From Chiloscyllium plagiosum (Eukaryota), in assembly GCF_004010195.1 (NCBI RefSeq), contig NC_057719.1:47679808-47743807 (forward strand): 64,000 nt of DNA, given 5' to 3'. The notes under the pieces were generated by a model. The model saw nothing but the letters and a program-made list of their open reading frames with translations. It made no database searches and was not told the origin of the DNA. The translations under genes were made by a program, and so were the position numbers. This document shows, in pieces, positions 1 to 59,600 of the stretch. Position 1 is the first letter of the stretch, and the number at the start of each line of letters is the position of its first letter.

Positions 1-152
1 ACGTTTCGGGCATAAGCCCTTCTTCCTGAAGAAGGGCTTATGCCCAAAACGTCGATTCTCCTGTTCCTTGGATGCTGCCTGACCTGCTGCGCTTTTCCAG
101 CAACACATTTTCAGCTCTGATCTCCAGCATCTACAGTCCTCACTTTCTCCTA
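1..152. mobile_element. Palindromic Penelope-derived short element (cut by window edge)
   Basis: Head-to-head copies of the cctgaagaagggcttatgcccgaaacgtcg terminus. Confidence 0.75.
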
Positions 153-2554: not shown

Positions 2555-5500
2555 CTATTGACAAGAAAGTTATAAAATCAGAATCTGTATCATAAATCCA
2601 ATACTAGTTTTCAATTTCACTAATACTGTTCCATTCTAAAATTTATATCAATGATTTTATGATACAATCATTTTGGCAGTGACACATTTAAAAGGAAGCA
2701 ATCCTGAATTAAGCATCTACTTTCAGTTTGTAATTAACGTAATTTTCACAATTAGACAACCAGCCAGCTGATTCAATGCAAATGCCTATGATATAATATG
2801 CATAGTTGTGCAAACGTGTTAAATGCCAATATGTTGGCTTTTAAATGAAGACTAAAGTCAGTATATTATTTTATCACCTTTAAATAGACAACAAAGTAAC
2901 ATGCATAATTAATATACACTAATGGCAAACTACTCTCAGTACCTGATTTTGGAGTTATTTGTTCCACGGGACCAAGATTTTTACTAAATGGATTTAACCC
3001 TGCAGTACAGAAGAACAGTTTTCAATAAGTAATCAACACAACAAAGTGGTTTTCTGCATATGTTTGCTTCAAACACATATTACCAGCACAAAAATAAACA
3101 GAAGTTACTTTTGGAACATGTAAAAAATTACACATCAGTATTTACTTGTACAAATATTTTCTTCTATTTACTTCAAAGTTCTGAATACTGATATAAAATG
3201 GATCAGGATTTGCTAAGCAGGAAGGTCGAAAGAGTGTTGGAGTTTTTTTGAAAAAGTAACAAAGAGGATTGATGAGGGCAGAGCGGTAGATGTGATCTAT
3301 ATGAACTTCAGTAAGGGGTTTGACAAGGTTCCCCCTGGGAGACTGGTTAGCAAGGTTAGATATCACAATATAGGGACAAGTAGCCATTTGGATACAGAAC
3401 TGGCTCAAAAGGTAGAAGACAGAGGGTGGTGGTGGAGGGCTGTTTTTCAGACTGGTGGCCTGTGACCAGTGAAGTGCCACAAGGATCGGTGCTGGGCCCT
3501 CTACTTTTTGTCATTTACATAAATGATTTGGACGGGAGCATACGAGGTACAGTTAGTAAGTTTGCAGGTGACACCAAAATTGGAGGTGTAGTGGACAGTG
3601 AAGGAGGTTACCTCAGATTACAACAGGATCTTGACCAGATGGGCCAAAGGGCCGAGAAATGACAGATGGAGATAAATTCAGATAATTGCGAGATGCTGCA
3701 TTTTGGGAAAGCAAATCTTAGCAGGACTTATACACTTACCATTAAGTAAGGTCCTAGGAGTGTTGCTGAACAAAAAGTGCAGGTTCATAGCTCCTTGAAA
3801 GTGGAGTCGCAGGTAGATAGGATAGTGAAGGCGGCATTTGGTATGCTTTCTTTTATTGGTCAGAGTATTGAGTACAGGAGTTGGGAGGTCATGTTGTGGC
3901 TTTACAGGACATTGGTTAGGCCACTGTTGGAATATTGCGTACAATTCTGGTCTCCTTCCTATCGGAAAGATGTTGTGAAACTTGAAAGGGCTCAGAAAAG
4001 ATTTACAAGGATGTTGCCAGAGTTGGAGAATTTGAGCTATGGGGAGAGGCTGAACAGGCTGGGGCTGTTTTCCCTGGAGCGTCAGAGGTTGAAGGGTGAC
4101 CTTATAGAGGTTTACAAAATCATGAGGGGCATGGATAGGATAAATGGACAAAGTCTTTTCCCTGGGGTCAGGGAGTCCAGAACTAGAGGTTATAAGTTTA
4201 GGGCGAGAGGAGAAAGATATAAAAGAGACCTAAGGGGTGACTTTTTCCACACAGAGTGTGGTACGTGTATGGAATGAGCTGCCAGAGGAAGTGGTGGAGG
4301 CTGGTACAATTGCAACATTTAAAAGGCATTTGGATGGGTATATGAATAGGAAGGGTTTGGAGGGATATGGGCCGGGTACTGGCAAGTGGGACGAGATTGG
4401 GTTGGGATATCTGGTCGGCATGGACGGGTTGGACCGAAGGGTCTGTTTCCGTGCTGTACATCTCTATGACGACATGCAGCTACAGGAGCTGAAGCACAAT
4501 TTTTGTTCAAGTCTTGTTCAAATAATTTCATATCAGAGCAATGAATAAAAATCTGGTCTCATAATTGGTTTGGACTTCTAAATATGCTAAACATGTAAAA
4601 AGTCATCTAAAATAAATTTAGAAAGTGGAATATCTAGCCAAACTTACTTCTCTTTGCATGAACTGTTTCCTCAGGATCCAATTCATTGTTACCATCTCCT
4701 TCTGCATTATTCTGAATATCTTCCTCACTTCCTTCTTCCTTTTCAATGGAGTTTTGAGCTGGAGGTTGCACATGTGAACTCCATTTGGTCACTGTTCTTC
4801 TATAGCTGCTTGAGAAAGACAGTTTCAATAACCAGCAAATTTTAGACCACTAACATTTACATCCTGAAATAATTAAACAAGCCTACTTTTGTGCACAAAG
4901 TTTTAATGCAAATGCAAAAAAATGTGGCAGTTGGATTCTGAAGTTACTTGCAACTTCTTCATTTGGTTGCAATTAGTTGAAAGCAACATGAAATTGTTAA
5001 ATGCTCATTAAATTCATTTGATCAACTGTGTAATTTATTGGATTTAAGATCAAATAAAAAAAGTGTAAAAAGCCCAAGTTCTAAAGTGCCATTTTATTCC
5101 TAGAGGTTTTCCCACTCAAATTCAGTTCATGTTTCAGAAGAGGATATTGAATTACTTGTCATGGACACTGAAGTGATTTTCAAAATAAACCACAGGACTG
5201 AGATTTCAATCTCTCCACAAAAGAGTTCAACATAAAGTATCTGACTAATAAAATTAAAAATTTCAGAAAGGAAAGGATAAAATGTAGTCCTTCTTTCAAC
5301 TGTTGCACATTTGTAGGAATAAGTGATGAAACAATAAAATAGCATTGAGACATGCTTATGAACACCAACATCGATTATAACAGAACTACTGAGAAATATG
5401 AAACTTGAACAGGCATGAGCACCTGATCACAAATTTTGGTGAGATGTTTCAAAGTGCAAAATGCTGATTAAATGGTATGGGCAAGCTGAAATACCTTTAA

Positions 5501-11500: not shown

Positions 11501-14500
11501 TATTTCCTCAGTTTTTTCCTAATCTATAATATTTATCAACACATTTTGAACATATCGCAGCACATTTAACATATATGCACCATTTCCAGGTGAGGAGTTC
11601 TCCTTTTATTTAATTGGTAGTACAGAACTGGAATATTGTTGAGAAAAGAAATTGCACTCATCAGGTCAGATGAAAGAACTATACTTTCTCTTCTTCATGG
11701 CCTGCACACTATATCCTAAAGTATTTGGAATATTAAGAGTAGATATTAAAATCACCTTCAGCAGAGAAGCCCTGCCACATCAGATAAGACTTCCTGGTAA
11801 GAGGAAGGGACGTTCCTTGCAGAATCTGCCGTTTCCTTCTTCCTAATTCCATTATTTGCACCCCCAAGCACTGATCTCCATCAAAACCAGTACCTGAAGA
11901 GAGAAAGGTCATAAATTTAAAAAAATTAAAATTTTCTTCAATAAATTTTACCTTCAGAAAGGGTTATTTCAAAGAAATTTACCATCTAGCTAAGTGGGTG
12001 AAACTATTCATTGGTTATAAAGTGCTTTGAGACTTCAGTTAGTTATGGAAAGTACTATATAAAATTAAAAATCACACAACACCAGGTTATAGTCCAACAG
12101 GTTTAATTGGAAGCACTAGTTTTTAAGAGTGCTGCTCCTTCATCACGTGGTTGCCTGAAATCTAGTGCTTCCAATTAAATCTGTTGGACTATAACCTGCT
12201 GTCAAGAGATTTTTTTTAAACTTTGTACACACCAGTCCAATACCGACATCTCCATATCATATAAAATCAGTCTTTCTTTAAAACAATGCCACTGAAACAA
12301 TGACTTACTAAAACTTCAAGGGATTCCTAAATCCACAAGGTGGCTGTGTATATTTCCACATGGAAATAAAATTACTGTCTGTTCTGACACCCTCCTTCAC
12401 TCTCAACAGTCACATCCCAACAGCACCTTCCCATGCAATCATAGAAGATACAACATTTAGCAGCTACCTCGTCTGTATCTCAAGCCCCAGACACCTTCCA
12501 GATGAAGCAGCAATTTACCTGCATTTCATTCAATCTAGTCTACTGTATTGGCTGCTCACAACACAGATTCCTTTAAAATGGGGAGACAAAATGCAGAGTG
12601 GGTGATTGCTTTGCTGAACACCTCCGCTCTATCTGGAAAAATGACATGAGCTTCTAACTGCCTGCCACTTCAACACACCACTGCTGTTCCCTTGCTAACA
12701 TTTCTGCAGTGCTCCAGCAAAGTTCAATGCAAGCTGGAGGAACAAAACCTCAGTCATAGAGATGTACAGCATGGAACCAAGACCCTTCGGTCCAACCAGT
12801 CCATGCTGACCAGATTTCCCAACCCAATCTAGCCCCACCTGCCAGCACCCGGCCCATATCCCTCCAAACCCTTCCTATTCATATACCCATCCAAATGCCT
12901 CTTAAATGTTGCAATTGTACCAGCCTCCACCACATCCTCTGGCAGCTCATTCCATACACGTACCACCCTCTGCGTGAAAGAGTTGCCCCTTAGGTCTATT
13001 TTATATCTTTCTCCCCTCACTCTAAACCTATGCCCTCTACTTCTGGACTCCCCAACCCCAGGGAAAAGACTTTGCCTATTTACCACAGTGGCCTAACCAA
13101 TGTCCTGTACAGCCGCAACATGACCTCCCAACTCCTGTATTCAATACTCTGACCAACAAAGGAAAGCATACCAAACGCCTTCTTCACTATCCTATCTACC
13201 TGCGACTCTACTTTCAAGGAGCTATGAACCTGCACTGCAAGGTCTCTTTGTTCAGCAACACTCCCCAGGACCTTACCATTAAGTGTATAAGTCCTGCTAA
13301 GATTTGCTTTCCCAAAATGCAGCACCTCGCATTTATCTTTCACTTAGGTACCTTACAGCTCTAAAGTCTCAACTGAGAGTCTAACATACCCACAACCATG
13401 AGAGTTTAACTATTTCAGTGGGAACACTTTCACCCGTGTTTGTTCCTCACCACCACACTCCCAAAGGCCTGTTCTGTATGGGTTGCTCCCAGGATAGCCT
13501 TTCCCATTTTCAACGATTTACAGTTCTCATTCAGCACAAAACCTCTTCCCCAGCTTACTATCTGCAATATCTTTGCATGCTTCCCTTTTTTCTCTCTACT
13601 GATGGGCACCATCTTCAACTATCCATGTCACTCCTCTCTCCCCCTACAACCAGCCATCATTAACATAAATACCACCCTTTCCCAGTTATTTTCAGTTCTG
13701 ACAAAACATCACTGCACTCAAAACATCAACTCTCTTTTTCTCTCTACTGATGCTGCCACACATGCTGAGTGTATCCTGCAGTTCTGTTTTTGTTTCAGGT
13801 ATACAACATCTACAATTCTTTGTTTAATTTCACAGTTCATTCTTGCCAACGCAATTTACATTATGCAGTTAGCACCTCTTATGTCGAAAAATGTTGCAAA
13901 ATGCTTCCAAGATTTAGAAGCAAAAAATGGATGGCAAGTCAAGAACAACATTTAGAAGGGGCGAGCTAAAGCTCAAAAGGAGAACAGAAAATTTAGAGGA
14001 AATTAGGAAGGGGATTCTGTCTGAGTTCTTAATACACAAGAAACTGATAGCAGAGAATATGGTAATGGGTAACTTTGTAAAACAGGAGTTTACAGAAAGA
14101 GGAAAGGAAGAAGCCATGTTGGGATTAAAGTATGGCAAAAGTGAGGACTGCAGATGCTGGAAATCAGAGTCAAGATTAGAGTGGCGCTGGAAAAGCACCA
14201 GACCGCATCCGAGGAGCAGGAAAAAATCGACGTTTCAGGCAAAAGTGCTTCATCAGGATGCAAATTTTAAATCTGACCCAGAAAGAAAAAAAACAGTAAA
14301 ATTGCAAAAGAGATATCCTGGTCTGGCTTGTCAAAATGGAGGACCAGCATAAGCAGGATGCTCATTTTCAAGTTTTACTATTTGTTTTCTCTGGGGAGGC
14401 ACTGGAAGGCCAGGAGCCAATGGAAGCGAGAATGTGCAGGCTGAAAGACCAGTGAGACGAAGGATGGCATACAAATTGTTCTAAAAAGGATGAAAGAACT

Positions 14501-17500
14501 GACGCCAGATAGAAACATATTGGATTAACCAAGTCTGGAGATGACAGGTCATGGATGAAAGTTTGAAGAATAATGGACTCATAAGGATAGAGGAAAAGAG
14601 AGAAAGAATTCAACATCATTCTGGATATGGTGGACTGCACATTGTCAATCACCTGGATTTTTTTGACTTGGAAAAGACTTGCAAAAGAAATAAATTTGGG
14701 AAAAATGCATCGTTTGCTCCCAAATAATATTCCTCCAAACAAAAGGGTTTAGAGGGATAAGGGCCAAGTGCTAGCAAATGGGACTAGATTAGGTTAGGAT
14801 ATCTCATCGGCACGAACGAGTTGGACCGTAGGGTCTGTTTCCGTGCACTATATCTTTATGACTTTAATGAATGAGCCAGAGGTCAAAGAAGAACAATATC
14901 AAGACTGCAGATCTGTAAATTTCAATGTTACTGATGTAGAACCCTTTAGCTATTAACAACTACTTGCTCTATACTGCATCTCAAACAGCAACTGGCAATG
15001 AATATCATGATCTCGTAATGATTTAAAGGCATTTTAGAGGCATAAATTAAAATTTGTTTTGAAACCAATTTTATGGACTGAAAGAAAATGATCCAACTGA
15101 GAATGAGGACTTGGCCAAATTAAATACAGACGGTAGGAAAGCAGGGAGGAGTAGGGAAGAATAGAATTATATTTAAAAACATACACAATTCCATCAAGCC
15201 AGAACAAGAAATTAACTCTGGTTCAAAGAATTCAGGAGGATATGCAGGAGTAGCACTAGACGTATCTAAAATAAGGTATCAGTCTGAAGTTACAACACAG
15301 GAGTTTACATGTCAAACGTAGCATGCATTATTAGAGTTAAGTGATTCCACAAACAACAAATCAGATCTAAGTTTTGTAGCCCTGCCATGTCAAGTGGTAG
15401 TGGGCAATTAAGCAACTGACAGAAGGAGACAAATCCATAAATATTCCATCCTCAACAGAAGACAGGGGCCAGCAAAAGGCAAAACTGAAACATTTGCATC
15501 CATCTTCTTCCAGGAGTGCTGAGTGAGTGATTCATCATGGCCTACACCTGAGGTCCTCAGTACCACAGATGAGAAGGGAAACGTGAGACTGATGTCAGCC
15601 AATGACCTTTTTCATCTCTAACTATCTTTTAATTCACACTTGTAATTTTAAGGAGAAGAACCTGTTGCATTCTGATTTTTGGTGGGAATTCAAAGAATGC
15701 AGTCAAACAAAATTAAAAGGATATCTTGTCTGAAAATAAATTATTTTTCTAGGATGTAGCAAGCAAGATAAACAGTAATCGAGTTTTGAGAAGATGAGGA
15801 AGGACACCACTTCAACTGGGACAACACATCCATCCTAGGACAAGCCAAACGAAGACACGCACGAGAATTCCTAGAAGCATGGCATTCCAACCAGAAATCT
15901 ATCAACAAACACATTGACTTAGACCCAATCTACCACCCCCTGAGAAAAAGAACAGGAAATGACACCACCACAGGAAATGACATCACCAACCCGAAGAAAC
16001 CCAAACATATCAACAGAAAGCAGGGATCATCAGCATCCAAAGGCTCACTGAAGATGTTACCTAGTATGGTGATGAAACGCCTGAAAATGAACCTTCCAGC
16101 TCAGCAAGCAAACCTACATCCATAAACAGTAATCGTATTGCATTTGGATTTTTAAAAGGCATCTGATGAGGTGCACCAGGTGTCACATCTCAGGCACTGT
16201 ATTGACAGGGTAGCAAGGAAACCTAATAAAAGTAGATGTTAATGTTCAACAGCCTTGACTTACAAGTAGTGGGGGGCAGAATACATGTCAATGTTTTACT
16301 ACTTAGGTGAACAAAAAAAAGAGAGATTGAAGGAGTTTGGCAACAGGTTAATAAATATAATTAGAACACTTCTAGAATGCAAACTTGAAATGGTTGAACC
16401 TGCCTGTGTCTGTTTTTTAAACTTGTATGCATTTTATAGAGTGATTCACTATAATACCCTAAAATGGCATCACACTAATGACCACCAGTTTGGACAGGAT
16501 GAGAATCTATATCAAAGTTTGTTATAGCATAGCACAAATGAGTAATCTTATTTACAAATGACTGGCGTAGAAAATTAAAGTATATATGATCTAAGGCATG
16601 CTGTTGCTTTACTTTTCATTTCACGAAACAATTATGGACTTAGGACTGCTTGCTTCAATGCAATTGGTCAGAACAATAAACTCAATATAAAGCACAAAGT
16701 ACAATGGTTCAGAAAGAACTTTTAAAATGTACCTCGATGATAAGAAATCAATAGCTGCTCCCCATGACCTGACATAGCGACCACAGGCCCCATAAGACTG
16801 AAGAGCTCCTTTTGTACACCACCAATGCTGAAGATGCGAACAATTTGAGCATTTGTCGTAACAGCAGCCCAGCCTTGACCTAAACAAATGGCTTCAATGT
16901 TTTCATTGTTTGGCATATCCACCATCCATTCTTTGTTTGCATCCCTGGAGTTGAAGTGAATACACTGGAGTGTGCTGATGGACAGATGGAAAAGCATAGT
17001 GTCTTAATATACACAATAACTTCCTTTCCCAAGAGCACTTTAATATTTTCTCATGCAGGGATTTAAAGAAAACATACAGATTTAACTTCAATAAGCTGAA
17101 CGGATTGGAACAGATAAAGATCGTTTAGCTTTCCCCAAGAGTTCAGCAGGTTAAGGTAGTGAATTGCTGAATCATGCAGGTTAAGAACACCCCAGCTCAA
17201 TCCCCGGTCTGTGCAGAGTTTACCGAACGGTCAGTGTGGCAGCAATAACATGTCAGTTTTGCTTAGGCATTAATCCTTGGTTAACCATTTGATTTTAAAA
17301 GCCACTATAATTTTAAAAATATATCATTTAGGTGGACAGTGAAGAGACCTTTCATTGTCAGAGGTGATATCTTTTGGTACAGCAAATCATTTTATATGAA
17401 CCAGAGGACTAATAATGCTTTCTCAATCAACACAATTAAAACTGATTATCTGATCAATCATTCATTTGGTGAATATATATGACATCTTGCTATGTTCAGA

Positions 17501-23500: not shown

Positions 23501-26500
23501 AAAACTACTCCCTCTAGCAGAAGGGATTAAAAATCAGAAGACATCGATTTAGGGTTATTGGCAAAAAAAAAATCAATGCCAAAAGCTTTTATATGGAGTG
23601 AGCAGTTAGTATCTGGTATATACCACCTCAGAGGGCGATGAAGGCAAAATCAAGCAAGATCTTGCTGATGATATAACTGATGATAAGTTAGTCTTGCAGA
23701 GACTGATATGGACATGACTGGCTGAATGGCCTCCTTCTGTGCTTCAACCATTTGATGATTCTATTTAATATTCCTCCTATCTTAAACATCAAAAATAAGA
23801 TTTGAAATGACAATGGATGTGTGTGCATAAAAGTGTATCAGGTATACTTTTGGTGCTGACAATTACTGCGGAATCTAAGAAGAACATAATCGATTATGTT
23901 CTAAGAATGGTCTAGCTAGCTGAATAGCTTTTATTTCATTAAAAGGAATTGTAGTTGGAAAGTAATATCAGAGATTTCTAAAATAAAATTTACCAACATT
24001 TCTTCAAACAGAATAAATTACATATCACGTCGACAACTTCCTTACTTTCACACAAGTTAAATAATCTCAAATGACAAAATAATGAAAATACATAAGCAAA
24101 AATAGCTAACAAATATAAATTCAAATACAATAATAGTATTTACATGTTCAAAGATACTAAATTGGTGGGCAACATGGTGGCACAGTGGTTAGCTCTGCTG
24201 CCTCACAGCGCCAGAGACCCGGGTTCAATTCCCGCCTCAGGCGACTGACTGTGTGGAGTTTGCACATTCTCCCCGTGTCTGCGTGGGTTTCCTCCGGGTG
24301 CTCCGGTTTCCTCCCACAGTCCAAAGATGTGCAGGTCAGGTGAATTGGCCATGCTAAATTGCCCGTAGTGTTAGGTAAGGGGTAAATGTAGGGGTATGGG
24401 TGGATTGCGCTTCGGCGGGACGGTGTGGACTTGTTGGATCGAAAGGCCTGTTTCTACACTGTAAGTAATCTAATCTAATCTAAAAAAATTATTCCTTATT
24501 CCTTACCGTTTGAGTTATCATCTTCAATAGCTCGATTATGTCGAGAACGGTTGACAATCGCCATTACATTATCATCATCACCATCATCGTCATCATCATC
24601 ATCCACTAATGGCTGCCTCATAGGTGATGGGGGTGATAGATTCATGCCTTTTGTTAACAAGTCATTGTCCTCTTCATCAAACAAATCTTCAAATGTGGCA
24701 GCATTTGAATGAGTTGCGTGTTCCTAAATAAAAATGTTTAAAAAATTTGCAGTAACCATGTCCAACAGAACTAATTGAGGTATCTACAAGTTTCTAATTT
24801 GTATAATTTCTCTATGGTGAATAGAATTAATACACTTCAGTACTGTAAACTGCGGAACAGATACACCTATGACGAGGATTTAATGCACTCATGCAAGCGT
24901 GTATACATACACACACAGACACAGTTAATAAAATTGTTTTAATACAAAACTACCAGTTCAAATAAAGTAAGACCTTATAATTATATTACTTTGCTTTAGC
25001 TTATTGCACACTCTACCAGAAATGATGAAGTGACAGCAACAAAATTACAAAAACATCCTTGTGCCTGTATTACTACTATAGACATAAAGTGTTTACCTTG
25101 CTACCAGCACTTGCCAAAACCCCTTCATGAAGACCCAGATTTCCTTCAGCATCTGTATATGCTATACTTTCTTTTGAAGGATGCCATGCCATTGCACAGA
25201 TGCGATAAGACTTCTCATGCTGAAATCTAAAAAACAACATAGTATTACTCACATCATACATTTATCAACCATTTATTAGATTATACTGCAGATAAACTAC
25301 CACTGAAATGGCAAGGGATCAACAGAAAAGTGAGGGCTTAAAAACTCGCATCTTAGACTTCTTTGATATAACACATTATAATTTTAGACCGTTAGTATCT
25401 TAAATACTTGAGCATATAGATCAGTTCTCAAGTGTTGAGCAATTAAACTAGTAAAGATTTTCAGTGCCTTGCCGCTTTTCAATTAATTAATTCAGTTTTA
25501 TGAGCCAAGTGTTAGTATTTTGTTCCAATAAATTGTAAGTTTACATTTTCAATTCCATCACGACAAGTTTCTTTATCTTCAAGTGCATTATTTAGGGTGA
25601 AATGGAAAATTAAAAGTGAAACTGTTTTCAAAGGAGTTAGAGAGAAGCAGAACACCCCTTTTACTTATTCATTGGTCACTACATGACAAAAAGAGAAGTT
25701 CACAGAAAGATATCAAGTTTGCCTACTCTCGCAAAATGACTGGTCCACAGGTTGGACGAAAAGCTAGTTCTGGATATCCAAAGTATGAATTCAAGTTCTT
25801 ATTATTCAATCTCAACGCTTTAAAGACATTTATCTTCCAGGTTTTAGCTACTACTATTAAGTTCAGTCAGCATGTTCAAGACAGCAAACAGCCAATTGTA
25901 TTTTTATTGCATGAGGAGAAAGTGAGGTCTGCAGATGCTGGAGATCAAAGTTGAAACTTTATTGCTGGAACAGCACAGCAGGTCAGGCAGCATCCAGGGA
26001 ACAGGAGATTCGACGTTTCGGGCACAGGCCCTTCTTCAGGAATGAGCAGAGAGTGTTCAGCAGGAGAAGATAAAAGGTAGGGAGGAGGGACTTGGAGGAG
26101 GGGAGTTGGAAATGTCTTCTTCTTGACCTCTCCGCCTCCACCCTACTCCGACCTATCACCCTCACCTTGACCTCTTTCCACCTATCACATTTCCAACGCC
26201 CCTCCTCCAAGTCCCTCCTCCCTACCTTTTATCTTCTCCTGCTGAACACTCTCTGCTCATTCCTGAAGAAGGGCCTGTGCCCGAAACGTCGAATCTCCTG
26301 TTCCCTGGATGCTGCCTGACCTGCTGTGCTGTTCCAGCAATAAAGTTTCAACTTTGATATCCAAATGAATCCAACAAGAACTGGACCAAGCATATGTGGT
26401 ACTCATAATCTTCTTCATCCTAAGTATACGCATGATTTTACTACAACTGCTAAGTATTTCATCAGTAATATTTTCAGCAACATAACACAAAACATCGCAG

Positions 26501-29500
26501 ATAAGAAAAACTGCAGCATATTAACATGCCAAATTTCCCCTAAAGTAAATGCATTAAAATTCCATCAAATTTGACAATATTGTTATGTATTTGGCTTTAA
26601 GGGGTTAACACGTAGGGGGTTCCATACAACAGCCAAGCAGGGTGAGATCAATAGTTGTGATGTTGAGAAGATATGCTCTTCTTCATTAGGGTAAATAAAA
26701 CCACAGAAAGTAGACAAAATCAAACACAAAATATTGCTGAGGAAAGGAGTGAACAAAGACAGAAATGGGAACTATTTAAATGTAAATCTATGATTCGCTC
26801 CAGTAATAATATCTAACAATATTCAATATCTAGGATCATACCAAAAGAGTACTTTGAAGTATTAAAGGGATTTTCTGCTATCTAGTGATCTCTGAGGCAT
26901 GAAGTTTCCCTTTCTTGATATGTGCAAGATCAAGACAAACACTAGGCATACAGTAACAGTGATATCACCGCAGGGAGTTGGCAGCCAATTACACTGAAGT
27001 ATTCTCAAACAGCAAATCAGAAAGTAAAATGCAGTAAAATCTTCTACTCAATTAAAATTTCCACAGAGTAAATACAAATCATCAGTGATACACATGGGAT
27101 TAAAGTAGCTGAAATATCATAACTTTTTTTTAAATTTGAAAAAAACATTATTGCCATAATAATGGCAAAAAAGCATCCCAGTGATATAACATTAGATTTC
27201 TATGAGTAACTATTGAGTTATTAAAATTAAATTGCATTTATATAGTAACTGTTATGGCCACAGAAAGATCCAAAATGCTTTACAGCCAATAAAGTACTTT
27301 GGAAGTACAGTCAGTGTTGACACATAGCAGGCAATTTACATGTAGCAAGCTCCCACAAAAAGAAATGCTGTACTAATTATTGAAAAAATATTGACTATGA
27401 CACCTGGAACAACTTTCTCATCAGTGGTGAGGTTCTGGAACCCACGAGTTCAAAGGGTAATACAGGCAAAAACCATAATCACATTAAAACATGCGGTGGA
27501 ACAGTCAATGGGTTTAGGAATCAAAATTTGGAGAGTGGGATTAGTGTGACGAGGTATTCATCGACTGGTATGGACATAATGTGCCAGACGACTACCTTCT
27601 GTGCATGAAATCTTACTGTGTTTTCTATGTATCTATAACTCTTATTAAAAATAGTGCCATTGGCTCTTCTATGTCTACATTAGAGGACAGACAGGCCTTC
27701 ACTTAGTAGGCTCTCGTCAAAAAGATAGCAGCTTAAATCTTCCAACTTCCCTCACTGGATTGGAATGTGTTGCTGGAAAAGCGCAGCAGGTCAGGCAGCA
27801 TCCAGGGAACAGGAGAATCGACGTTTCGGGCATAAACCCTTCTTCAGGAATGAGGAAAGTTTGTCCAGCAGGCTAAGATAAAAGGTAGGGAGGAGGGACT
27901 TGGGGGAGGGGCGTCGGAAATGTGATAGGTGGAAAGAGGTCAAGGTGAGGGTGATAGGCCAGACTGGGGTGGGGGCGGAGAGGTCGGGAAGAAGATTGCA
28001 GGTTAGGAAGGCGGTGCTGAGTTCGATGGATTTGACTGAGACAAGGTGGGAGGAGGGGAAATGAAATTTTCAGCTCTGATCTCCAGCATCTGCAGACCTC
28101 ACTTTCTCCTAGCCATAGTGAAGCCACACAGTGTCTAACTCAATGACTCGTCTCTGGTAAATACGAACGTTGTTGATCTCCTCTTGTGTTGAAATCAGAA
28201 ACAGACATGAAGGTGACAATTGGAAGCCACCCACCCTGCACTGAGACTGAAGCCAGCCGTCTCTGGTTTGATGTTTTCAAGAAAGACCTTTATATCTGCG
28301 ATGGGAAGATTTGGGTGTCAATCTTACAAGGTAATGCAACAATATCATTAAGGTAGAGATGGATTGTTTGTAGTGCCACCCCTCAGTGAAGTTGTTAATG
28401 AATAAATAGAATACATAAAGAAAGAAAGTCACATTTGTATGAACCTCAGCAAGGCTCATTACGGTCAATGAAATTTTTTTTACTCAGCCAATGAAACAGG
28501 GCACAATAAGCTCCCACAAACAGCAATATGATAGTTGCCAAGTGACCTGCTTTTGCAATGTTGATTGGTCAGGACTCCAGGGTTAACTCCCTTACTATTC
28601 TTTAAAATTGTGCTATGGTATCTTCTCCCTCCACTTGAGAGGATAGAATCATAGAATCCCTACAGTGTGGAAACAGGCCCTTCAGCTCAACAAATCCACA
28701 CCAATCTTCTGAAGATCCATTCCCCTATCCTATTATCCTATACTTACCCGTGACTAATGCACCTAACCTGAACATTATGACAATTTAGCATGACCAGTTC
28801 ACGTACCCTGCATGTCTTTGGATTGTGGGAGGAAACCTGAGCACCCAGAGGAAACCCACACAGACATGGGGAGAATGTACTGTCGCCCAACGGTAGAATC
28901 AAATGCAATACCCTGGTGCTGTGAGACAGCAGTGCTAACCACTGAGCTACCATGCCAGATAGATGCGACCTTTTTTCTTAACAATTCGCCTCTGACTGCA
29001 CACCCCTGCTCAGGACTACACTGGGGTATCAACCCAGATTAGAACTTTCTAAAGAGGCATTTTGCCCACAATATTGTAAATCAGCGTTCAGGGTTCAAGT
29101 AGTGAGTCACGCTAATTCAGAGTGCATCAGTGCTGAACGGTACTGTCTTCCATGTGCGTCAATGATCAGATAAAGGTCTCTGAGTGTTGAATAAATTATC
29201 CCCTCCCCACGCCTCCATCCTACTCTGACCTATCACCCTCACCTTGACCTCTTTCCACCTATCACATTTCCAACGCCCCTCCTCCAAGTCCCTCCTCCCT
29301 ACCTTTTATCTTCTCCTGCTGAACACTCTCTGCTCATTCCTGAAGAAGGGCCTGTGCCCGAAACGTCGAATCTCCTGTTCCCTGGATGCTGCCTGACCTG
29401 CTGTGCTGTTCCAGCAATAAAGTTTCAACTATTTTTATTGCATGACCAAGCTACAGATTGATGCAAATATGCACTGGGACTGTTCAACTGCTGATTCCTC

Positions 29501-32500
29501 CTGCATTTTTAAAAAAGCCCTGTAGAAAGCCATAGGCATACAGCCACACCTTTTGTCACTGTGCCTTATAACAATTTAACTGCGAAGAAACTATGCAAGT
29601 GCCTTTGCACCAATTATTTTTAAGGTGCCTGGGGAAACGCCACTTTTTGTCATTAGCCTACTAAGAAAATCATATAGGTGCTATTCTTGAGAACTTGATC
29701 GTACTTAAAAATAGCCCAGGAAATTCATGTCAGAATTATGCCAGAAATTATTTTAACATTTATAAAATGTCACCTCTATTTTGAGAGCAAAATATAATAA
29801 AACTATTTCCAAAAGTTCAAAGCAATTCAGCAAATGTTCATAAACTTACATTCCATCCATTTAAAAATGAAGATAAGCTAACTTCAATGAAAAGTGCAAA
29901 CAAAATAAGCATTTTAAATTCATAATCATTTTTTAGTTTAGAAATTGGACAAAATTATCTTAAAACATTTAAATTTCCAGTATTTTGACTTCTCATTACT
30001 GAATAATAGAATCTCATGAAGGAAAATAAACATTTTGACACTAACTTATCCTGTAAATAATTCAGTGTGAATTCCATCACAATATCCTCAAACAATAATG
30101 GAGTTTCACAAATTAACACGAGAATATTATACCTTTCAATGCATTTTCTGGTCTGTACGTTCCAAACCACCATTGATCCATCAATGCTCCCAGCAGCCAC
30201 ATAACCACCACAAGGAGACCATGATACAACATTTAATGGCTGAGGAAAAAGAATGGGAAAATAATCCTCAAATTTAGCATTTGTAAAAAAATACATTAAT
30301 CTTGCCTTTAATAATCACCTGTCTGTCTTTGAAAATAAACACAACTTCTAAAAACAGTTGGCAAAACTTACAGGGAAAATACACAAGGTTTCTTACCTAT
30401 TTTGGCAAAATAATTTTTAATATTTCTATGATCTTCTAAACATTAGTTCTAATCCAGAGGACTTGTTGTTTAGAAAGCTATTTGCAATGATTGCTGCTTC
30501 ATGAAATGTTATTTTAATATAAAAATGTTATTTTTATATTAAATTTCAGTAAGGTTACTCTCAATTGGAAAACTTACCATCATAATACTTTCATCTGAAA
30601 GATTGTCAGTATTTTCCCAGGTGTCCCTTTCAAAGAGCTTCACAACCTTTTCTACTGGAACTGCCAGAAGCTATATGCACATACCAAAACAAAAAGACAG
30701 AATTAAATTGAAAACATTCAAATTACACATGTATTCAGTCAATTGTTAAAATTTAATTTCCAAACATTTCTTCTCATTTTTTGGTATACATGTTGCATAC
30801 TTTTCTGGTTAGTAATGCAGAAACGAATTACAATACTAGAAACTCTGGTCAAAGCGGAGACCAAAATACACAACTAAAGCTACATTATCAACAGCATAAA
30901 ATGTACCCAAAAGATCCTATTCCACTTACTGAACCAAACAAATTTAGGATCAGGTTCGTACAAGGCCGGTCTGGAGTCCACAATGAAGTAGAATACAGAC
31001 GGAACTGGCCTATAGTTCATCAATACATGGCACTGGTAGCCTCTCCATTACATGTCCATATAGCATCACCCTTTTCTTACGGTATTTGCTCCCACAAGAA
31101 TTGCAACCCGCAAGACACTGCCATCAGTTCAGAGACTACTAAATCACCCGAAATGGCTGCTTGCTAATGAGAAAAGAAACACTGCAGACTTGATAAGTTG
31201 AGCTATCATACCCCAGAGTCTCCCATTGAGGAATTACTCAGTACTATCATCCATCACAAGGCGGGAATAGCTTGGAGGTGATGTAACTCCACTAGGCTAG
31301 GCACCACAATCCACCTCACCCAAATACAGGACAACCGTACACGTACTGCAGCTAATCCAGTAAGGCTAGGAATACTTTAGCAAATAATTCACTTCCTGAC
31401 CACCCTCCCAAAGCTTATCCACCATATTCAAGGTACAAGTTAAGAGTGTAATGGAAAACTCTTCAATCACCTGAATCTGCAGTTCCTACAACACTCAGGA
31501 AGTTCGAACACAAACTAAGCAGCTGTCTTCTTTATTGACACCTGATCTATAAGCAGAAATCAGTAACGCCCTCCATCAGTGGTGAACCATTATTGAGTGT
31601 ACACACAATGCAAGCTGCACTACAGAAACTTACCAAGGCTTCTTCAATAGCACTTTCCAAATCCATGACCTCCACTGTCTAGAAGGAGAAGTGAAGCAGG
31701 TACACGAGAACATCACCACCTGCAAGACCCCCTTCCAAGTCATGTGCCCATCTTGACTTAGAATCATATCATTCTCCATCATCACTGGGGTAAAATCTTG
31801 CAACTACCTATCTAAATAGCACTGCAAGAGTACCTATGGACTTGAGATTATTTTCCAATGCATAGTTATAGCAGGTTAATTGTGGTTAAATGAGAAATCT
31901 GGTAACTTAAGCATGTGGCATTTTGTCTGTGATTGCTTATTATCAAAGATAGCCCCTCAAAGGTGAGATTAACCAAATGGCCCACACTAACAAATTTACT
32001 GGTGGAGTAAACTCCCATTTTGTAATAACCTTTGAAGTGAAAGTCTTTAGTATACAGGCAAAGTTTTGTGTTTAAAATTGGCTTCATTTTATAACTACAT
32101 TACTTTGGAATGACGTTGTGTAATTAATTACATACAACAATTTCTTAAGACAATCTAGGCTGTAAAATTTCAGTGATAAGGTTTGATTCTTGGTAAATGA
32201 CAATCTAAACAACCAAAGGCTTTCCAAAATTTCCTTTTATTAACTTGTTCTAGGCAGCAGTTATTACATAAATAAATGGTTATTTTAACTTTAAGATATT
32301 GATGGTTTTAGAATTCACCAGAACATTTGGGTTGATATTTATGACTAGAATATGACACTACATACCTCTAAGCACACAAAAGTACTTGGATAGTATTTCC
32401 TTACTTGGCTTACTAAGTTTATGACTTCCTACTAACAGGGAAAACTTGGAAGGAAAAGGTGTACCCTGTCATTGATAATTTTGTGAACCAGTTGGGAGAC

Positions 32501-44329: not shown

Positions 44330-46795
44330 AAATAAAGGATCTTCAGGCAGGGCACAGAAGGGTGTAAATGTGGAGTTGGTGTTGCATTATTAATTGAGTC
44401 AATTACTGTAGTCAGGAAGGACGATACCTTGGAAGGGTCAACAAATAAGGCTTTGTGGGTAGAGCTTAGGAATAAAAAGAGGCAGTCGTACTGAAAGGAT
44501 TGTAATATAGACCCCCAAATATAAGCAGGCAATATAAGAGCCAATATGTAGACAATTATAATTGAGTGATGTAAAATTGTAAAACAATAATAGATAATTA
44601 TATTAGGGGATTTTTAACTTCCCAACATTAATTAGGATAATTAGAGTGTAAAGGGTTTAGAGGTGGCGGATTTCTTGAAACGTATTTAGGTGAGCTTTTT
44701 ATATCAATACATAGAGGATCCAATAAGGGGCAATGCTGAACCAATTCTGTGGAATGAAGCCAGACAAGTGGTCAAGGTGGCAGTGGTGGAGCATTTTAAA
44801 GACAGTGAGCACAATACAGTACAATTTGTTTTGGATAAGAAAAATATGGCCTGCAAAGAAGTGCTTTGGATGCAGGAAGGCAAATTTTATTGAAATAAAG
44901 CAGGGGCTGGCCAAAGTAGACTGGAAGCAGCTAATTGGAGGTAAATCCACATCAGAACAGTAGAAGGCATTCAAAAGGAAGTGGGGAACTTACAAGCCTA
45001 ACATATTCCTTTAAGGTGAAATATAGGGGCGACAAACCCAGAAGACCATTGATGTTTCAGAACATTTGAACTGGATAAAAAGAAAAAGAGAGGTGTGTCA
45101 CAGAGGGAGTACAGGTATGGATAGATTAAATCAACAGAGACCATGGTGGAGTATAGAATGTGCAGAAGGGAACTTAAAAAAGCAATTAGCAGAGCAAAGA
45201 TGGGATATGAGAAAACGCTGCCAGACAGATTATGGAGAATCCCAAATATCCCACAAGTATATCAAGGGGAAGAGAATAGCCAGTGAAAGAGTAGGGCTCA
45301 TTAGGCATCAAGAGGGAAATCTGTGCATGGAACTGGAGAACATTGGTAAGTTTTCACTTCTGTCTGAAGAGAAGGAGGATGTAGGCACAGAATTCAGGAA
45401 GGTAAGCTGAAGGGTTTTGACCAGTTTGACGTAAGGAGTGAGGAGGTATTGGAGGTTTTGGTGGGCTTGAAAATTGGTAAATCTTCAGATCTGTATAAGT
45501 TGCATCCAGGCTGTTGTGGGAGACAAGGGAGGAAGTTACAGGTGCCCTGACCCAAACTTTTCATTCCTGTCTGGCCACAGTGGAGGTGACATAATGTGGT
45601 TCCATTTTTCAAGAAAGGTGATTGAGATAAACTGGGAAATTCATAACATTGTGGTAAGGAAACTACTGGAGAAAAGTTTAAAGGAGAAAATATACCTCCA
45701 TTTAGACAGGCAAAGTTTGATCAGGGCTAGTCAGCATAGCTTTGACAGTGGGAGATTATGCCTAAGGAATCTGGATGAACATTTCAAGGAGGTGACCAGA
45801 AGTATAGACAAAGGTCAGTTTATATGGATTTCAGCAATGCCTTTGATGTACCACATGGGAAACTGATAAAGAAGATAAAAGATAGGATAACTCAGGAAAT
45901 TGGATCCAAAAGTGCTTAGTGACATGAGACAGAGGGTGGTGGTAGAAGGCTATGTGACTGGAGATCGGTGTCCACTGATCAGTGCTGGGTTCCTTATGTT
46001 GGGTGGGAAGGGAGATGACACTAAGATTGGTGTGGTGATTAACAGTGAAGAAGGTCTTAAGAAGACCTTTCGAGGAAGTAACAAGACAAGGGAGTACTCA
46101 ATGATTGGTAGGACACTAGGAAGCTTGGAGGAATGGAGGGTCTTGTCCACAAATCCCTTAAGTGGGGCAGTTTAATACGGTAGTGAAGAAGACAAACAGC
46201 GCACTAACCTTTATCAATTTAGGCATAGATTATAAGAGCAGGGAGTTTCATTGGAGCTATAAAGAACTAGTTAGATCACAGCTGGAGTACTGTGCAATTC
46301 TGGTTACCACAGTGTAGGAAAGATGTGATTGAACTGAAGGGGGTGCAGTGGAGATTCACCAGAATGTTGCCTGGAATGGAGCAGTTTAGCTATGAAAAGA
46401 GTCTGGAAAAGCTTAGGTTCTTTTCTTTGGAGCATGAAAGGTTGAGGGGACACCTGACTGAAGTGTATAAGATTATGAAGGGCATAGAAAAAGTGGATAG
46501 AAAGCAGCTATGGAAGGGTCAATAAGTCGGGGGCATACTTCTAAGAGAAAAGGCAGGAGGTTTAGTGGGGAGTTAAGGAAAAATCTTTTCACCCAAAAGT
46601 TGGTGGGTGTCTGGATGGGTAGTAGAGGCAGGTCACCCCGACCTTTTGCAAAGGATTTGGATGAGCACTTAAAGTGTCACAACATTCAAGGCTTTGGGCC
46701 AAATGCTGGAAAGTGGGACTAGTGTAGATTTAGCATTGGTTTGGTGGTACAGACTCAATGGCTGAAGAGCCTCTTCTGTACTCTATGATTCTATA
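44330..46795 (+). mobile_element. Highly decayed CR1 LINE (endonuclease to 3' end)
   Basis: Remnants YRPP, GDFNFP, DDTKIG, QFWLPQCRKDV; many stops. Confidence 0.85.
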
Positions 46796-49045: not shown

Positions 49046-49251
49046 AGTTTTGTCATTAACTCTCGATGATACACTGATGTGGGTTGTGAGTAGCTTTTCC
49101 TTTGTTTGCAATCTCTACTCCATCCCTTTGTTATCTTGCAGAGCAAGAGGGCTTAGCAACTAACAACTAGCATGACTGTAAACAAGTGAACTGCACAGAA
49201 ACTTTGTGATCAGAACTGAGGCCTTCTCCATATGGTGCTCGAACCTCTATC

Positions 49252-49416
49252 GGAGCTGAAAATGTGTTGCTGGAAAAGCGNNNNNNNNNNNNNNNATTCC
49301 TGAAGAAGGGCTCATGCCCGAAACGTCGATTCTCCTACTCCTTGACCTGCTGCGCTTTTCCAGCAACACATTTTCAGCTCTGATCACCAGCATCTGCAGT
49401 CCTCACTTTCTCCTCA
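49252..49416. mobile_element. Palindromic Penelope-derived element containing the 15-N gap
   Basis: AACCTCTATC duplicated at both flanks; inverted arms. Confidence 0.75.
49296..49331 (+). ncRNA. Hammerhead motif in Penelope terminus
   Basis: ATTC-CTGAAGA-A-GGGC(TCAT)GCCC-GAAAC-GTC-GATT. Confidence 0.65.
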
Positions 49417-49957
49417 AACCTCTATCAACTTGGCCAACTTTGAGCAGCTCTACAAATCGCCAAGCATTTACACAGCCTCCAACAGAGGCAATAGAAATTA
49501 ATCAAAAAGTAACCTCAGGGTATTTGATGATTCCTTTAAGAGTGCTTACAGGTCTTCATGTTTCTGAATCTATATGTACACTTGTGCACAACTGGCCAGT
49601 GAGGCAAGGGTGAAAATGACACCACTGATGTCAAATCAGCATTACATGCTGAATCATGATTTCTGTCATCAACATATCTCCAGTACATGTTTCTCATGCT
49701 GGCTAATGCCCCAAAGTTTTGATATCAAAATGGCATTAGAGGAAATTACACTGATAACGAAAATGCTTTCATGGATGTAAGTAAACTCACTTTGCATGTC
49801 ACTGCTTCTGTTCTGTACCCTTACTCACTATGTTCATGCAGCCTCAGAAAGAGATTCTAAGTTTTTCTACAATAGATCCATTTGAATAACAACTCACACT
49901 CTGTTAAGCAAAAGAAACTGCAGGGAAAATATTGATTTTTTTTCAAGATTTCTCCTT

Positions 49958-51549: not shown

Positions 51550-52350
51550 GGAAAGTGTGAGGTTTTACACTTTGGTGGGAAGAATAGAGACATAAACTAA
51601 TTTCTATATGGCAAAAGGTTTCTGAAATCTGAAGCAAATTAGGAATTAAGAGTCCTAGTTCAGGATTCTCTTCAGGTTAACATGCAAGTTCAGTTGGCAA
51701 TTTGGAAGGCAAATGCAATGTTAGCATTAATTTCAAGAGGATTGAATACAAAAGCAGAGATGTACTGCTGAGACTGTATAAGGCTCAGGTCAGACCACAT
51801 TTGAAATTTTCTGAGCAGTTTTGGGCCCCATATCTAAGGAAAGAAGTGCTGGTGTTGGAGGGGGTCCAGAGGAGGTTTACAAGAATGGCCCCAGGGAAGC
51901 AGGGCTTGTCATATGAGGAGCAATTGAGGACTCAGTCTGTACTCACTGGAGTTTTGAAGGATGGGGAGAGATCTCATTGAAACTTAAAGAATACTGAGAG
52001 ACTTGGATAGAGTGGATGTGGAGAAGATGTTTCCATTAGTAGAAGAGATTAAAACCTGAGGGCACAGTCTTGGAGTGAATGGATGAAACTTTCGATGGGA
52101 GATGAGGAGAAATTATTTCAGACAAAGGGTAGATAATCTGTGGAACTCGTTGCTGCAGAGGGCTGTGGAGGTCAAGTCATTGAATGCACTTAAGACAGAG
52201 ATGGATAGGTTTTTGATTAGTAAAGAGATCAAGGGTTATGGGGAGAACACAGGAGAATGGGGTTGAGAAACATATCAACCACGATCAAATGATGGAGCAG
52301 ACTCAATGGGCTGAATGGTCTATTTCTGTTCCTATAGCTTATGGTCTTAC
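51550..52350 (+). mobile_element. CR1 LINE 3' fragment (older subfamily)
   Basis: LRLYKAQVRPHLKFSEQFWAPYLRK in ORF 51702..51980. Confidence 0.88.
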
Positions 52351-55814: not shown

Positions 55815-56365
55815 CATAGAGTCATAGAGATGTACAGCATGGAAATAGACCCTTCGGTCCAAGCTGACCAGCTATCCCAACCTAATCTAGTCTCACCTGC
55901 CAGGACCCAGCTCATATCCCTCCAAACCCTTCCTGTTCATATACCCATCCAGATGCCTTTTAAATGTTGCAATTCTACCAGCCTCCACCACTTTCTCTGG
56001 CAACTCATTCCATACACGTACCACTCTCTGCATGAAAAAGTTGCCCCTTTGGTCTCTTTTATATCTTTCCTTTCTCACCCTAAAACTATGCCTCTAGTTC
56101 TGGACTCCCCCACCCCAGGGAAAAGATTTCGTCTATTTATCCTATCCATGCCCCTCATGATTTTATAAACCTCTATAAGGTTACCCCTCAGCCTCCGATG
56201 TTCCAGGGAAAACAATCCTAGCCTATTCAACTTCTCCCTATAGTTCAAATCCTCCAACCCTGGCAACATCCTTGTAAATCTTCTCTGAACTCTTTCAAGT
56301 TTCACAACATCTTTCCAATAGGAAGACCAGAATTGCACGCAATATTCCAAAAGTGGCCTAACCAA
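55815..56365 (-). mobile_element. CR1 LINE 3' fragment
   Basis: ORFs 56075..56365 and 55893..56078. Confidence 0.9.
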
Positions 56366-56594
56366 TATTAGATGAACATTTATCTGTCTTCCCAGCTGAC
56401 AAAGATTTGTTGAGGTACGTTTTGATTATTACATAAATCAGATGTCAGCCCATTAATGAATCAAAGCATCTTTTCACCACACTTGTTACAGCCTGTGGAC
56501 GATTAGCTTGTTGAAGCACTGAGCTTACTAAGTAGCTTCAGGCAACCATGTGGGCAATACTGTGTTATATGAATTTCAATGTAGGTAATGATGA

Positions 56595-58719: not shown

Positions 58720-59600
58720 CGCCATTTCCACTGTTCCAGCAGGTGCCACTACTGAACACATATTTCCCTCACCTCCCTTGTCAGCATTCCACAGGCATTA
58801 TTCCCACCATGCATCATAATCCAATCTTCAGTCACTCCTAATATTTCCTCAACCCTGATGGCACATTCTAATGTAATTACAAAAGGTGAAACACTTGCCC
58901 TTTTATCTTTTCTCTTCTCACTGTCTAGGGACTAAATACATTTCAAGATATAGCATCAATTACTTGTACTTCATTCAATCTAGTCCACAGTATTCACAGT
59001 TTGGTATCCTTTACATTTGTGAGACCAAATTCAGTCTGGGTGATCACTTTGTGGCACACCTCCTTTCTGTCCAGAGGAATGAACTCAATCTTTCTGGCTG
59101 CTTGTTATTTCAATATATCCTTTTACCCCAGTGCTCATATTTCCATCCTAGAGCTGCTGCAATGTTCTAGTGAAGCCCAACGCAAGGTGGAGGAACAGCA
59201 CATCATTTTCCACCTAAGCACCTTACAGAGTTTAGACTTAATTTGTATTCAATAACTTTAGAACATGAACACAGTCCTCCGTTTTGGTTACACCTTCCCA
59301 ACTCCCTAACCCCACACCCCACCACCCCACAGGTCTCTTGTTTGTGGGGATTTCCTCTCTGTAAAGCCAATCCATTTTTGACTATTCTCATCTATCATTA
59401 ACACCTATTTTGTATAAATATCACTCTTTTGCCACCATTACCTTTTGCGTGGTCACCAACTGTCCCAATAACTCTTTGCCCCTTTTGTCAACAACTTTTA
59501 AACCATAATTTTCCAGCTGTTTAGTTCCAAAGAGAAACTTGAAACTCTGATCCTCTTTCCACATATGGAGTTTCTCTAGCACTTTTTGTTTTTTATTTTC
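58720..59600 (+). mobile_element. Decayed Penelope-like element (GIY-YIG remnant)
   Basis: Similar to 12420-13830; FGILYICETKFSLGDHFVAHL in ORF 58886..59170. Confidence 0.6.

What the first reader, a model, noticed from the sequence alone, without database searches (positions are those of the whole stretch)
26259..29371. Tandem same-sense hammerheads would excise a 3077-nt unit RNA (retrozyme-like)
Seen: identical intact cores at 26259-26294 and 29336-29371, with predicted GUC cleavage after 26290 and 29367, 3077 nt apart. Stem III is only the palindrome ACGT. Known: minimal Penelope hammerheads are proposed to act as dimers, and retrozymes use tandem hammerheads to release monomers that circularise. 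Inference: a + strand transcript could pair the two motifs in cis and release a linear or circular RNA carrying the TSPEAR-like exon, a potential substrate for further mobilisation.
Basis: partly seen in the sequence, partly recalled or inferred. Interest (0 to 1): 0.7.

Follow-up and report, generated by a model that had tools for sequence, protein, structure and literature searches.

The report
Penelope insertion carrying captured TSPEAR exon
The two hammerhead motifs are real, but they are the ends of what looks like a single Penelope-type jumping-gene insertion that copied about 2.8 kb of another shark gene (one TSPEAR exon with its flanking intron DNA) into an intron of WDHD1, a kind of gene-fragment capture described in rotifers, and probably not a self-excising RNA circle.

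Summary
Both minimal hammerhead cores are real and 3077 nt apart, but they are parts of Penelope-like (PLE) terminal repeats. Its layout is inverted repeat with 35-nt tail, direct repeat, 2846-bp cargo, direct repeat. The three repeats are about 99% identical. The cargo holds one TSPEAR exon with intact splice sites and sits antisense in an intron of an otherwise colinear bamboo-shark WDHD1 gene. This matches the PLE gene capture reported in the rotifer Adineta vaga. The retrozyme reading fails as an origin: the insert spans both cut sites, and the sequence upstream of the two hammerheads differs, so it was not copied from an excised monomer or circle. An antisense repeat inside the cargo is predicted to sequester a hammerhead. 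An AATAAA 14 nt before the cargo's 3' junction hints at a cleaved read-through RNA. The empty site, donor locus, junction-spanning reads and transcription are untested. Listings from five paper searches showed no vertebrate case, but this scan noted two similar cassettes in other genomes (unchecked).

The parts
25899..25914 (.). Left copy of the 16-bp target-site duplication (13 of 16 bases A/T)
   Evidence: the 16-mer occurs only here and at 29430 in the window; 14 of 200,000 random 60-nt pairs share a 16-mer
25915..26115 (-). A': inverted, 5'-truncated PLE terminal repeat ending in the 35-nt 'tail' (25915-25949); head to head with A
   Evidence: 175/177 identical to A and 166/167 to B; three older copies in the window (23-150, 28064-28109, 49296-49413) end at the same tail base, as does a 21-nt fragment
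26008..26043 (-). Intact minimal hammerhead in A' (predicted cut after 26012); sense in the WDHD1 pre-mRNA
26116..26363 (+). A: direct PLE terminal repeat, 5'-truncated at the inversion point; ends at 26358 or 26363, 5-10 nt into the tail
26259..26294 (+). Minimal type I hammerhead in A (predicted cut after 26290)
26364..29209 (+). Cargo: 2846 bp of unspliced host DNA, inferred to come from the TSPEAR locus; no long reading frame; 601 of 2846 bases match repeats elsewhere in the window, and neither 100-nt end does
27764..28063 (-). C: older PLE end (about 90% identical to A) inside the cargo, with a core-intact hammerhead at 27851-27816; antisense to A and B in a + strand RNA
28064..28109 (+). 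Tail-bearing inverted stub belonging to the older insertion C
28199..28330 (+). Single TSPEAR coding exon, 132 nt, AG/GT splice sites intact, phase 1-1; the only TSPEAR exon found in the window
   Evidence: 98% to Chiloscyllium punctatum TSPEAR, E 1.2e-21; one tblastn hit of the 671-aa protein, residues 264-308
29190..29195 (+). AATAAA lying 14 nt before the CA at the cargo/B junction (possible cleavage site of the template RNA)
   Evidence: 0.18% of random breakpoints in the window and 0.32% in the cargo have this pattern; noticed after the fact; 6 AATAAA hexamers in the cassette
29210..29429 (+). B: second direct PLE terminal repeat, 5'-truncated, ending 35 nt before the tail end and running into the right TSD
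29336..29371 (+). Minimal type I hammerhead in B (predicted cut after 29367)
29430..29445 (.). Right copy of the 16-bp target-site duplication (its first T could also belong to B)
25227..30132 (-). Host WDHD1 intron (GT at 30132, AG ending at 25227; 4906 nt, of which insert plus one TSD copy is 3531) between the exons coding about residues 232-268 and 268-310

Best explanation
25915-29429 is one retrotransposition product of an endonuclease-bearing Penelope-like element acting in trans. Shown by the sequence: TSD, inverted repeat with tail, direct repeat, TSPEAR intron-exon-intron cargo, direct repeat, TSD, inside a WDHD1 intron; three near-identical repeats; outer ends 35 nt apart on the repeat; both hammerheads present uncut. 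Inferred mechanism: the PLE protein nicked both strands of an AT-rich site 16 nt apart. One reverse transcriptase started at the first internal start site and copied 220 nt of terminal repeat (B). It then continued or jumped onto unspliced RNA from the TSPEAR locus, possibly at an end made by cleavage after AATAAA, and copied 2.85 kb and then repeat A. A second cDNA primed from the other strand at the tail site gave A', and the two were joined head to head. My preferred sub-route (roughly half of this explanation's weight) is that A sat in the TSPEAR intron, a read-through RNA ran from it to a cryptic poly(A) site, and B was added by a template jump. Two jumps with neither repeat at the donor, or both repeats already at the donor, share the rest. 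The hammerheads are passengers of the terminal repeat and did not define the ends of this insert. The exon lies antisense to WDHD1 and is probably inert.
For: Perfect 16-bp direct repeat exactly at the two outer repeat ends and nowhere else in the window; 14 of 200,000 random pairs do this. No repeat of 7 bp or more brackets any of the three sub-units tested, A'+A, A..B or B alone, while a control head-to-head copy near 49.3 kb has a 10-bp TSD. A and B are 98.9% and 99.4% identical to A'; the other 13 fragments are 79-95%, and those aligned over more than 50 nt are 79-90%. A tblastn of the congener's WDHD1 gives 20 colinear hits on the minus strand with consecutive exons either side of the cassette, whereas TSPEAR gives 1 hit; complete TSPEAR proteins with this exon exist in related sharks. 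The layout equals the rotifer case of two direct plus one inverted pLTR and a TSD around host DNA (PMC3846280). The 35-nt offset between ends equals the 30-40-nt tail explained by two RT start sites, the Anolis PLE protein cuts both strands at AT-rich ATT sites, and unprocessed RNA is its main template (PMC11167929).
Against: No empty site, donor locus or junction-spanning read was seen; no genome is held and no reads were laid. The link from this repeat family to an RT/GIY-YIG ORF was not shown here (one search found nothing; PLE identity rests on architecture and the hammerhead). There is no poly(A) at either junction, and the AATAAA is one of six in the cassette and was noticed after the fact. 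B differs from A at 2 of its first 17 bases, which a single-template model must put down to later mutation or RT error. TSDs were not found for controls F, D and H and only weak or internal repeats for C and I, so the TSD search is not sensitive on old copies. The assembly has N gaps, one at a PLE palindrome, and such structures are known to trouble assemblers (PMC8557442).
Confidence: 0.74

Rival explanations
1. Two-step DNA route: a plain fold-back PLE insertion (A' plus one direct repeat, with the 16-bp TSD) came first. A break in it was later repaired by copying from the TSPEAR locus through similar repeat copies, duplicating the repeat and inserting the cargo.
For: It would also give the TSD, near-identical A and B, and unspliced cargo. 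Fold-back insertions with their own TSD exist in the window. B's first 17 bases carry both A/B differences.
Against: It needs matching young repeats, or microhomology, at both cargo ends in the donor. The only repeat copy inside the cargo is about 90% identical and inverted. It does not predict a layout identical to the rotifer retrotransposition case, where an empty allele was found.
Confidence: 0.11
2. Assembly chimera: WDHD1 and TSPEAR intron sequence were joined through near-identical repeat copies, and the true WDHD1 allele has only a short fold-back insertion.
For: The window has N runs (500 nt at 36999 and 15 nt at 49281). Both cargo junctions are at copies of a high-copy repeat. Junction reads were not examined.
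Against: It needs two jumps, out and back, through 220-250-nt repeats and two near-identical young copies 2.85 kb apart at TSPEAR. A and B have different 5' and 3' ends, unlike a collapsed repeat. The exon has Ile where 8 of 9 aligned shark TSPEAR proteins, including all three C. punctatum records, have Thr; this fits a drifting copy but could also be a species difference.
Confidence: 0.07
3. One reading: a + strand RNA is cut by a cis dimer of the two hammerheads, and the 3077-nt monomer or circle is the mobile, amplifying unit.
For: Both cores are intact and helix I is perfect in A, B and A' (3 of 9 cores in the window). The dimer geometry is nested and feasible (-13.1 kcal/mol). A circular-template model for PLEs has been proposed (PMC4209133), and dimeric axolotl retrozyme constructs cleave better than monomers (PMC7229834).
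Against: The insert boundaries lie outside both cut sites and are marked by a TSD. The sequence upstream of A is not a second round of B plus cargo. The antisense copies C and A' out-compete dimer pairing by hundreds of kcal/mol. The unit is 3077 nt against 170-400 nt RNAs or 51-972 bp consensus for animal retrozymes, and there is no tandem array. The known gene here is transcribed from the other strand.
Confidence: 0.05
4. Independent insertions of a young repeat subfamily on either side of a TSPEAR fragment that arrived by some other route, the 16-mer match being chance.
For: The repeat family is abundant (16 fragments catalogued in 64 kb). The genome-wide abundance of the A-type subfamily was not measured.
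Against: A-type variants occur only in these three copies out of 16, the 16-mer sits exactly at both outer ends, and the orphan exon is left unexplained.
Confidence: 0.03

Closest known systems
[quoted passage not shown] 2013, PMC3846280; sections 9 and 11 and passages read)
   Same: Host DNA between two direct pLTRs with an adjacent inverted pLTR, the whole flanked by a TSD; no internal PLE sequence; cargo of a few kb (4 kb per PMC6431247).
   Different: Vertebrate host. The cargo is one exon with partial introns, not a whole gene, so retention of a complete intron is not shown. The TSD is 16 bp against 8 bp. The empty site was shown there and is untested here. There is a possible poly(A) signal at the cargo end here.
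Canonical insertion architecture of EN+ PLEs: partial tandem, inverted 5'-truncated copy, 30-40-bp tail (PMC8557442 passages; PMC11167929 main text)
   Same: Head-to-head inverted copy next to the upstream repeat; a 35-nt tail on one end only; AT-rich target; hammerhead in the terminal repeat.
   Different: The RT/endonuclease ORF is absent and host DNA lies in its place (longest frame 92 codons).
[quoted passage not shown]
   Same: Core, extra base between 9 and 10.1, G10.1-C11.1, palindromic ACGU, short helix I; that paper also reports tandem pairs about 3 kb apart and opposite-strand pairs.
   Different: In the published 3-kb pairs the spacer is the PLE ORF; here it is TSPEAR DNA. Helix II is 4 bp, shorter than the 7-8 bp of the schistosome motifs.
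Animal non-LTR retrozymes (PMC7229834 passages; bioRxiv 10.64898/2026.07.22.740005, first 2 of 5 parts)
   Same: Two same-sense type I hammerheads, no coding capacity, likely dependence on PLE enzymes.
   Different: Not a short tandem repeat; about 3 to 18 times longer than the reported units; minimal, not canonical, hammerheads; ends not consistent with a rolling-circle copy; no circular RNA shown.
LINE-1 3' transduction and exon shuffling (as summarised in PMC6431247 passages)
   Same: Flanking host DNA carried to a new locus, possibly ending at a downstream poly(A) signal.
   Different: No poly(A) tail; the cargo is closed by a second terminal repeat; the PLE RT starts internally.

Membership tests
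Minimal type I hammerhead of PLEs | Conserved core CUGANGA...GAAA...UH, extra base before helix II, G10.1-C11.1, palindromic 15.2-16.2, short helix I | tested here: met
   against the features listed in PMC4209133
Minimal type I hammerhead of PLEs | Self-cleavage as a dimer | not testable with these tools
   Folding only: dimer -13.1 kcal/mol; competing duplexes -370 to -429 kcal/mol
EN+ PLE insertion / PLE-mobilised host DNA | Two direct plus one adjacent inverted terminal repeat | tested here: met
EN+ PLE insertion / PLE-mobilised host DNA | 30-40-nt tail on one end | tested here: met
   A' extends 35 nt beyond B; three older copies and one 21-nt fragment end at the same base
EN+ PLE insertion / PLE-mobilised host DNA | TSD around the whole unit at an AT-rich site | tested here: met
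   16 of 16 bases, 13 of them A/T; none around three sub-units
EN+ PLE insertion / PLE-mobilised host DNA | Cargo is host DNA from another locus | tested here: met
   One TSPEAR exon inside a WDHD1 intron; full TSPEAR proteins in congeners. The donor DNA itself was not seen.
EN+ PLE insertion / PLE-mobilised host DNA | Empty site with a single TSD copy | not tested
   No genome held; no reads were laid
EN+ PLE insertion / PLE-mobilised host DNA | Terminal repeat belongs to a family with an RT plus GIY-YIG ORF | tested here: inconclusive
   One protein search with a 41-codon frame of a related copy found nothing; an earlier unchecked scan note reports an intact element with such hammerheads in another genome
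Autonomous PLE | RT and endonuclease ORF between the repeats | tested here: not met
   Longest stop-free frame is 92 codons
Non-LTR retrozyme | Short head-to-tail tandem repeat unit (RNAs about 170-400 nt; consensus 51-972 bp) | tested here: not met
   Spacing is 3077 nt; no tandem array of period up to 500 here
Non-LTR retrozyme | Genomic copy is a more-than-unit copy of a cleaved monomer or circle | tested here: not met
   The sequence upstream of A differs from B's 5' part plus cargo end
Non-LTR retrozyme | Multi-copy family | not tested
   One copy in the window; genome not held
Non-LTR retrozyme | Abundant linear and circular monomer RNA | not tested
   No RNA reads were laid

The most novel reading that the evidence does not exclude
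Shark Penelope-like elements act as exon shufflers: the RT starts inside its own terminal repeat and jumps onto the processed 3' end of an unspliced sense host RNA, here 14 nt after AATAAA, so multi-kb exon-bearing blocks move between genes. Cassettes like this one, with identifiable donors, would show which strand and which RNA ends PLEs use, a question left open in PMC3846280. With many terminal repeats per genome the route could be common in sharks.
Probability: 0.3. Interest if true: 0.72.

Novelty: new member of a known kind. Interest (0 to 1): 0.46.

Why it matters
PLE capture of unspliced host DNA rests, in the papers I saw, on a few rotifer loci. A clean vertebrate case with a single-copy gene as likely donor makes the mechanism testable from genome data alone: comparing the TSPEAR donor with the copy would tell read-through from template jumping from composite mobilisation. 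It also gives natural evidence that an insert can be copied from RNA that its hammerheads did not cut, in line with the in vitro Anolis result. No effect on WDHD1 and no new gene is shown, so the biological consequence at this locus is probably nil.

Tried and rejected
Whole-genome search: no genome held. Rfam at gathering threshold: 0 matches in 64 kb, uninformative for minimal motifs. Tandem-repeat search: 6 rows, none in the cassette. Pfam on the cargo exon: 0 families; its identity came from the protein search. Protein search to link the repeat to a PLE ORF: 1 candidate, none significant. Sequencing-run search with 26364-27700: 20 of 24 runs hold part of it, no RNA holder listed. Shares were 0.97 in four runs of the possible source sample, 0.66-0.75 in four other samples of the same species, 0.31 in one small run of that species, 0.34-0.37 in nine runs of organism B and 0.21 in two of organism C. 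None was laid, so I do not count them as evidence. By arithmetic 0.37 corresponds to about 97% identity and 0.66-0.75 to about 99%, which could mean donor-only individuals, a diverged population or thin coverage. No read-level result was obtained, which leaves the empty site, donor junctions and transcription open. Dating: 3 substitutions in 609 compared bases (0.5%) would be about 7 million generations at the epaulette-shark rate of 7e-10; I reject this as a date because the count is 3, RT errors and a pre-existing A would inflate it, and the rate's interval is tenfold. The window as a native TSPEAR locus was rejected (1 exon only). Free folding of the single motifs did not give the full hammerhead fold. 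Earlier-findings look-ups by sequence and two by words returned nothing. Supplements of the papers were not read; they may hold further PLE-capture cases.
Full report
Observation. They have every feature listed for minimal hammerheads of Penelope-like elements (PLEs): the conserved core, an extra base before helix II, a G-C pair opening helix II, the ACGU palindrome instead of helix III and a 4-bp helix I (PMC4209133 results and discussion). C17 falls at 26290 and 29367, 3077 nt apart. Rfam gave no match at gathering threshold. The motifs are not rare here: 9 of 11 core-pattern matches in the window lie in copies of one dispersed repeat, of which I catalogued 16 fragments. Two more cores lie on the minus strand inside the same 3.5 kb, 1808 nt apart.

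Setting. No genome is held. Pfam hits and a tblastn with the Chiloscyllium punctatum protein show WDHD1 on the minus strand, with 20 colinear hits from 36.6 kb to 2.5 kb. The finding lies in one intron, 30132 to 25227, so the + strand is antisense to the host gene. The exon at 28199-28330 is TSPEAR: 98% identical to C. punctatum and 93% to Hemiscyllium, with AG/GT sites intact. It is the only hit of the 671-aa TSPEAR in the window, while related sharks have complete proteins. It has Ile where 8 of 9 aligned shark proteins have Thr and one distant shark has Ile; a tenth did not match the pattern. The host is a bamboo shark or close relative.

Anatomy. The hammerheads sit in longer repeats: A (26116 to about 26363, +), B (29210-29429, +) and an inverted A' (25915-26115, -) joined head to head with A. 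A and B differ at 2 of 221 bases, A and A' at 2 of 177, B and A' at 1 of 167. The other 13 fragments are 79-95% identical to A', and those aligned over more than 50 nt are 79-90%. A 16-bp sequence is repeated directly at 25899-25914 and 29430-29445, abutting the outer ends of A' and B, and occurs nowhere else in the window. Random 60-nt pairs share a 16-mer 14 times in 200,000. None of three sub-units tested has a flanking repeat of 7 bp or more; of six control copies one had a clear 10-bp TSD, two had weak or internal repeats and three had none. A' runs 35 nt beyond B's end, and three older copies and a 21-nt fragment stop at the same base. The 2846-bp cargo has no frame longer than 92 codons, and 601 of its bases match repeats elsewhere in the window, including an older antisense copy C of the same family just upstream of the exon.

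What it is. This layout is the one described for PLE insertions, with an inverted 5'-truncated copy and a 30-40-bp tail (PMC8557442 passages). [quoted passage not shown] The Anolis PLE protein cuts both strands at AT-rich sites and starts reverse transcription at two internal sites that bound the tail (PMC11167929 main text), which accounts for the two outer ends. I infer one insertion event (0.74). The steps inside it are inferred, not shown. An AATAAA lies 14 nt before the CA at the cargo/B junction, a pattern seen at 0.18% of random breakpoints in the window and 0.32% in the cargo. It was noticed after the fact, the cassette has six such hexamers, and there is no poly(A), so it is a hint only. 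It favours a read-through RNA from a repeat in the TSPEAR intron, cleaved at a cryptic site and closed by a template jump. Because the cargo holds only partial introns, retention of a complete intron is not shown; it only excludes mature mRNA as template.

The retrozyme reading. The insert contains 175 nt upstream of the first cut site and 62 nt downstream of the second, so a doubly cut linear RNA cannot be its template. Copying round a circle would place B's 5' part and the cargo end upstream of A; instead A differs at 26141 and 26149 and continues for 17 bases in repeat sequence shared with copy C. For a present-day transcript the dimer is geometrically possible (-13.1 kcal/mol), but A or B pairs with C at -429 or -397 kcal/mol and A with A' at -370, and the minimum-energy fold of 26116-29429 puts hammerhead A in the C duplex. 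These are predictions. Minimal hammerheads cleaved poorly in vitro even as dimers, and in the Anolis element cleavage needed protein and was dispensable for insertion. Animal retrozymes are short tandem units (PMC7229834 passages; bioRxiv 10.64898/2026.07.22.740005 parts 1-2), which this is not.

Limits. No reads were laid, so the empty site, the donor junctions, the reality of the joins and transcription are all untested. A two-step DNA capture (0.11) and an assembly chimera (0.07) remain. The link of this repeat to an RT/GIY-YIG ORF was not shown. Run word-shares are listed under tried and rejected.

Novelty. In the listings of five paper searches (titles and abstract starts only, 15-20 papers shown of 36-275 matches each) I saw no vertebrate case of PLE capture of host DNA, and two later papers cite only the rotifer case in the passages I read (PMC8557442, PMC6431247). 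The library lacks most subscription papers. This scan has noted two similar cassettes in other genomes, one in a fish-like vertebrate (unchecked). Verdict: a new member of a known kind; interest 0.46.

Noticed in passing
window 26008-26043 and 27816-27851 (minus strand): The WDHD1 pre-mRNA itself would carry two same-sense, core-intact hammerheads 1808 nt apart (A' and C), each with a long antisense partner (A, B) in the same intron; predicted duplexes -371 and -392 kcal/mol.
   Followed up: partly
window 26339-26344 and 29416-29421: The young A-type terminal repeat carries an AATAAA where older copies read differently; A ends at a CA 19 nt after it if its end is taken as 26363.
   Followed up: partly
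window 49242-49426: Head-to-head PLE insertion with a 10-bp TSD and a 15-N assembly gap at its centre.
   Followed up: partly
window 1-150 and 1079-1248: Two further fold-back PLE stubs centred at or near the hammerhead.
   Followed up: no
window 15790-16122 and 58929-59252: Frames resembling C-terminal endonuclease regions of other PLE families (the resemblance is recalled, not tested).
   Followed up: no
window 3217-4545, 12832-13343, 45891-46719, 51681-52263, 55896-56425: Several LINE-like reverse-transcriptase 3' fragments (label recalled, not tested).
   Followed up: no
window 26364-27700: Four other samples of the same species hold only 0.66-0.75 of this stretch's words against 0.97 for the possible source sample; unexplained, could reflect a polymorphic insertion, a diverged population or coverage.
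   Followed up: no
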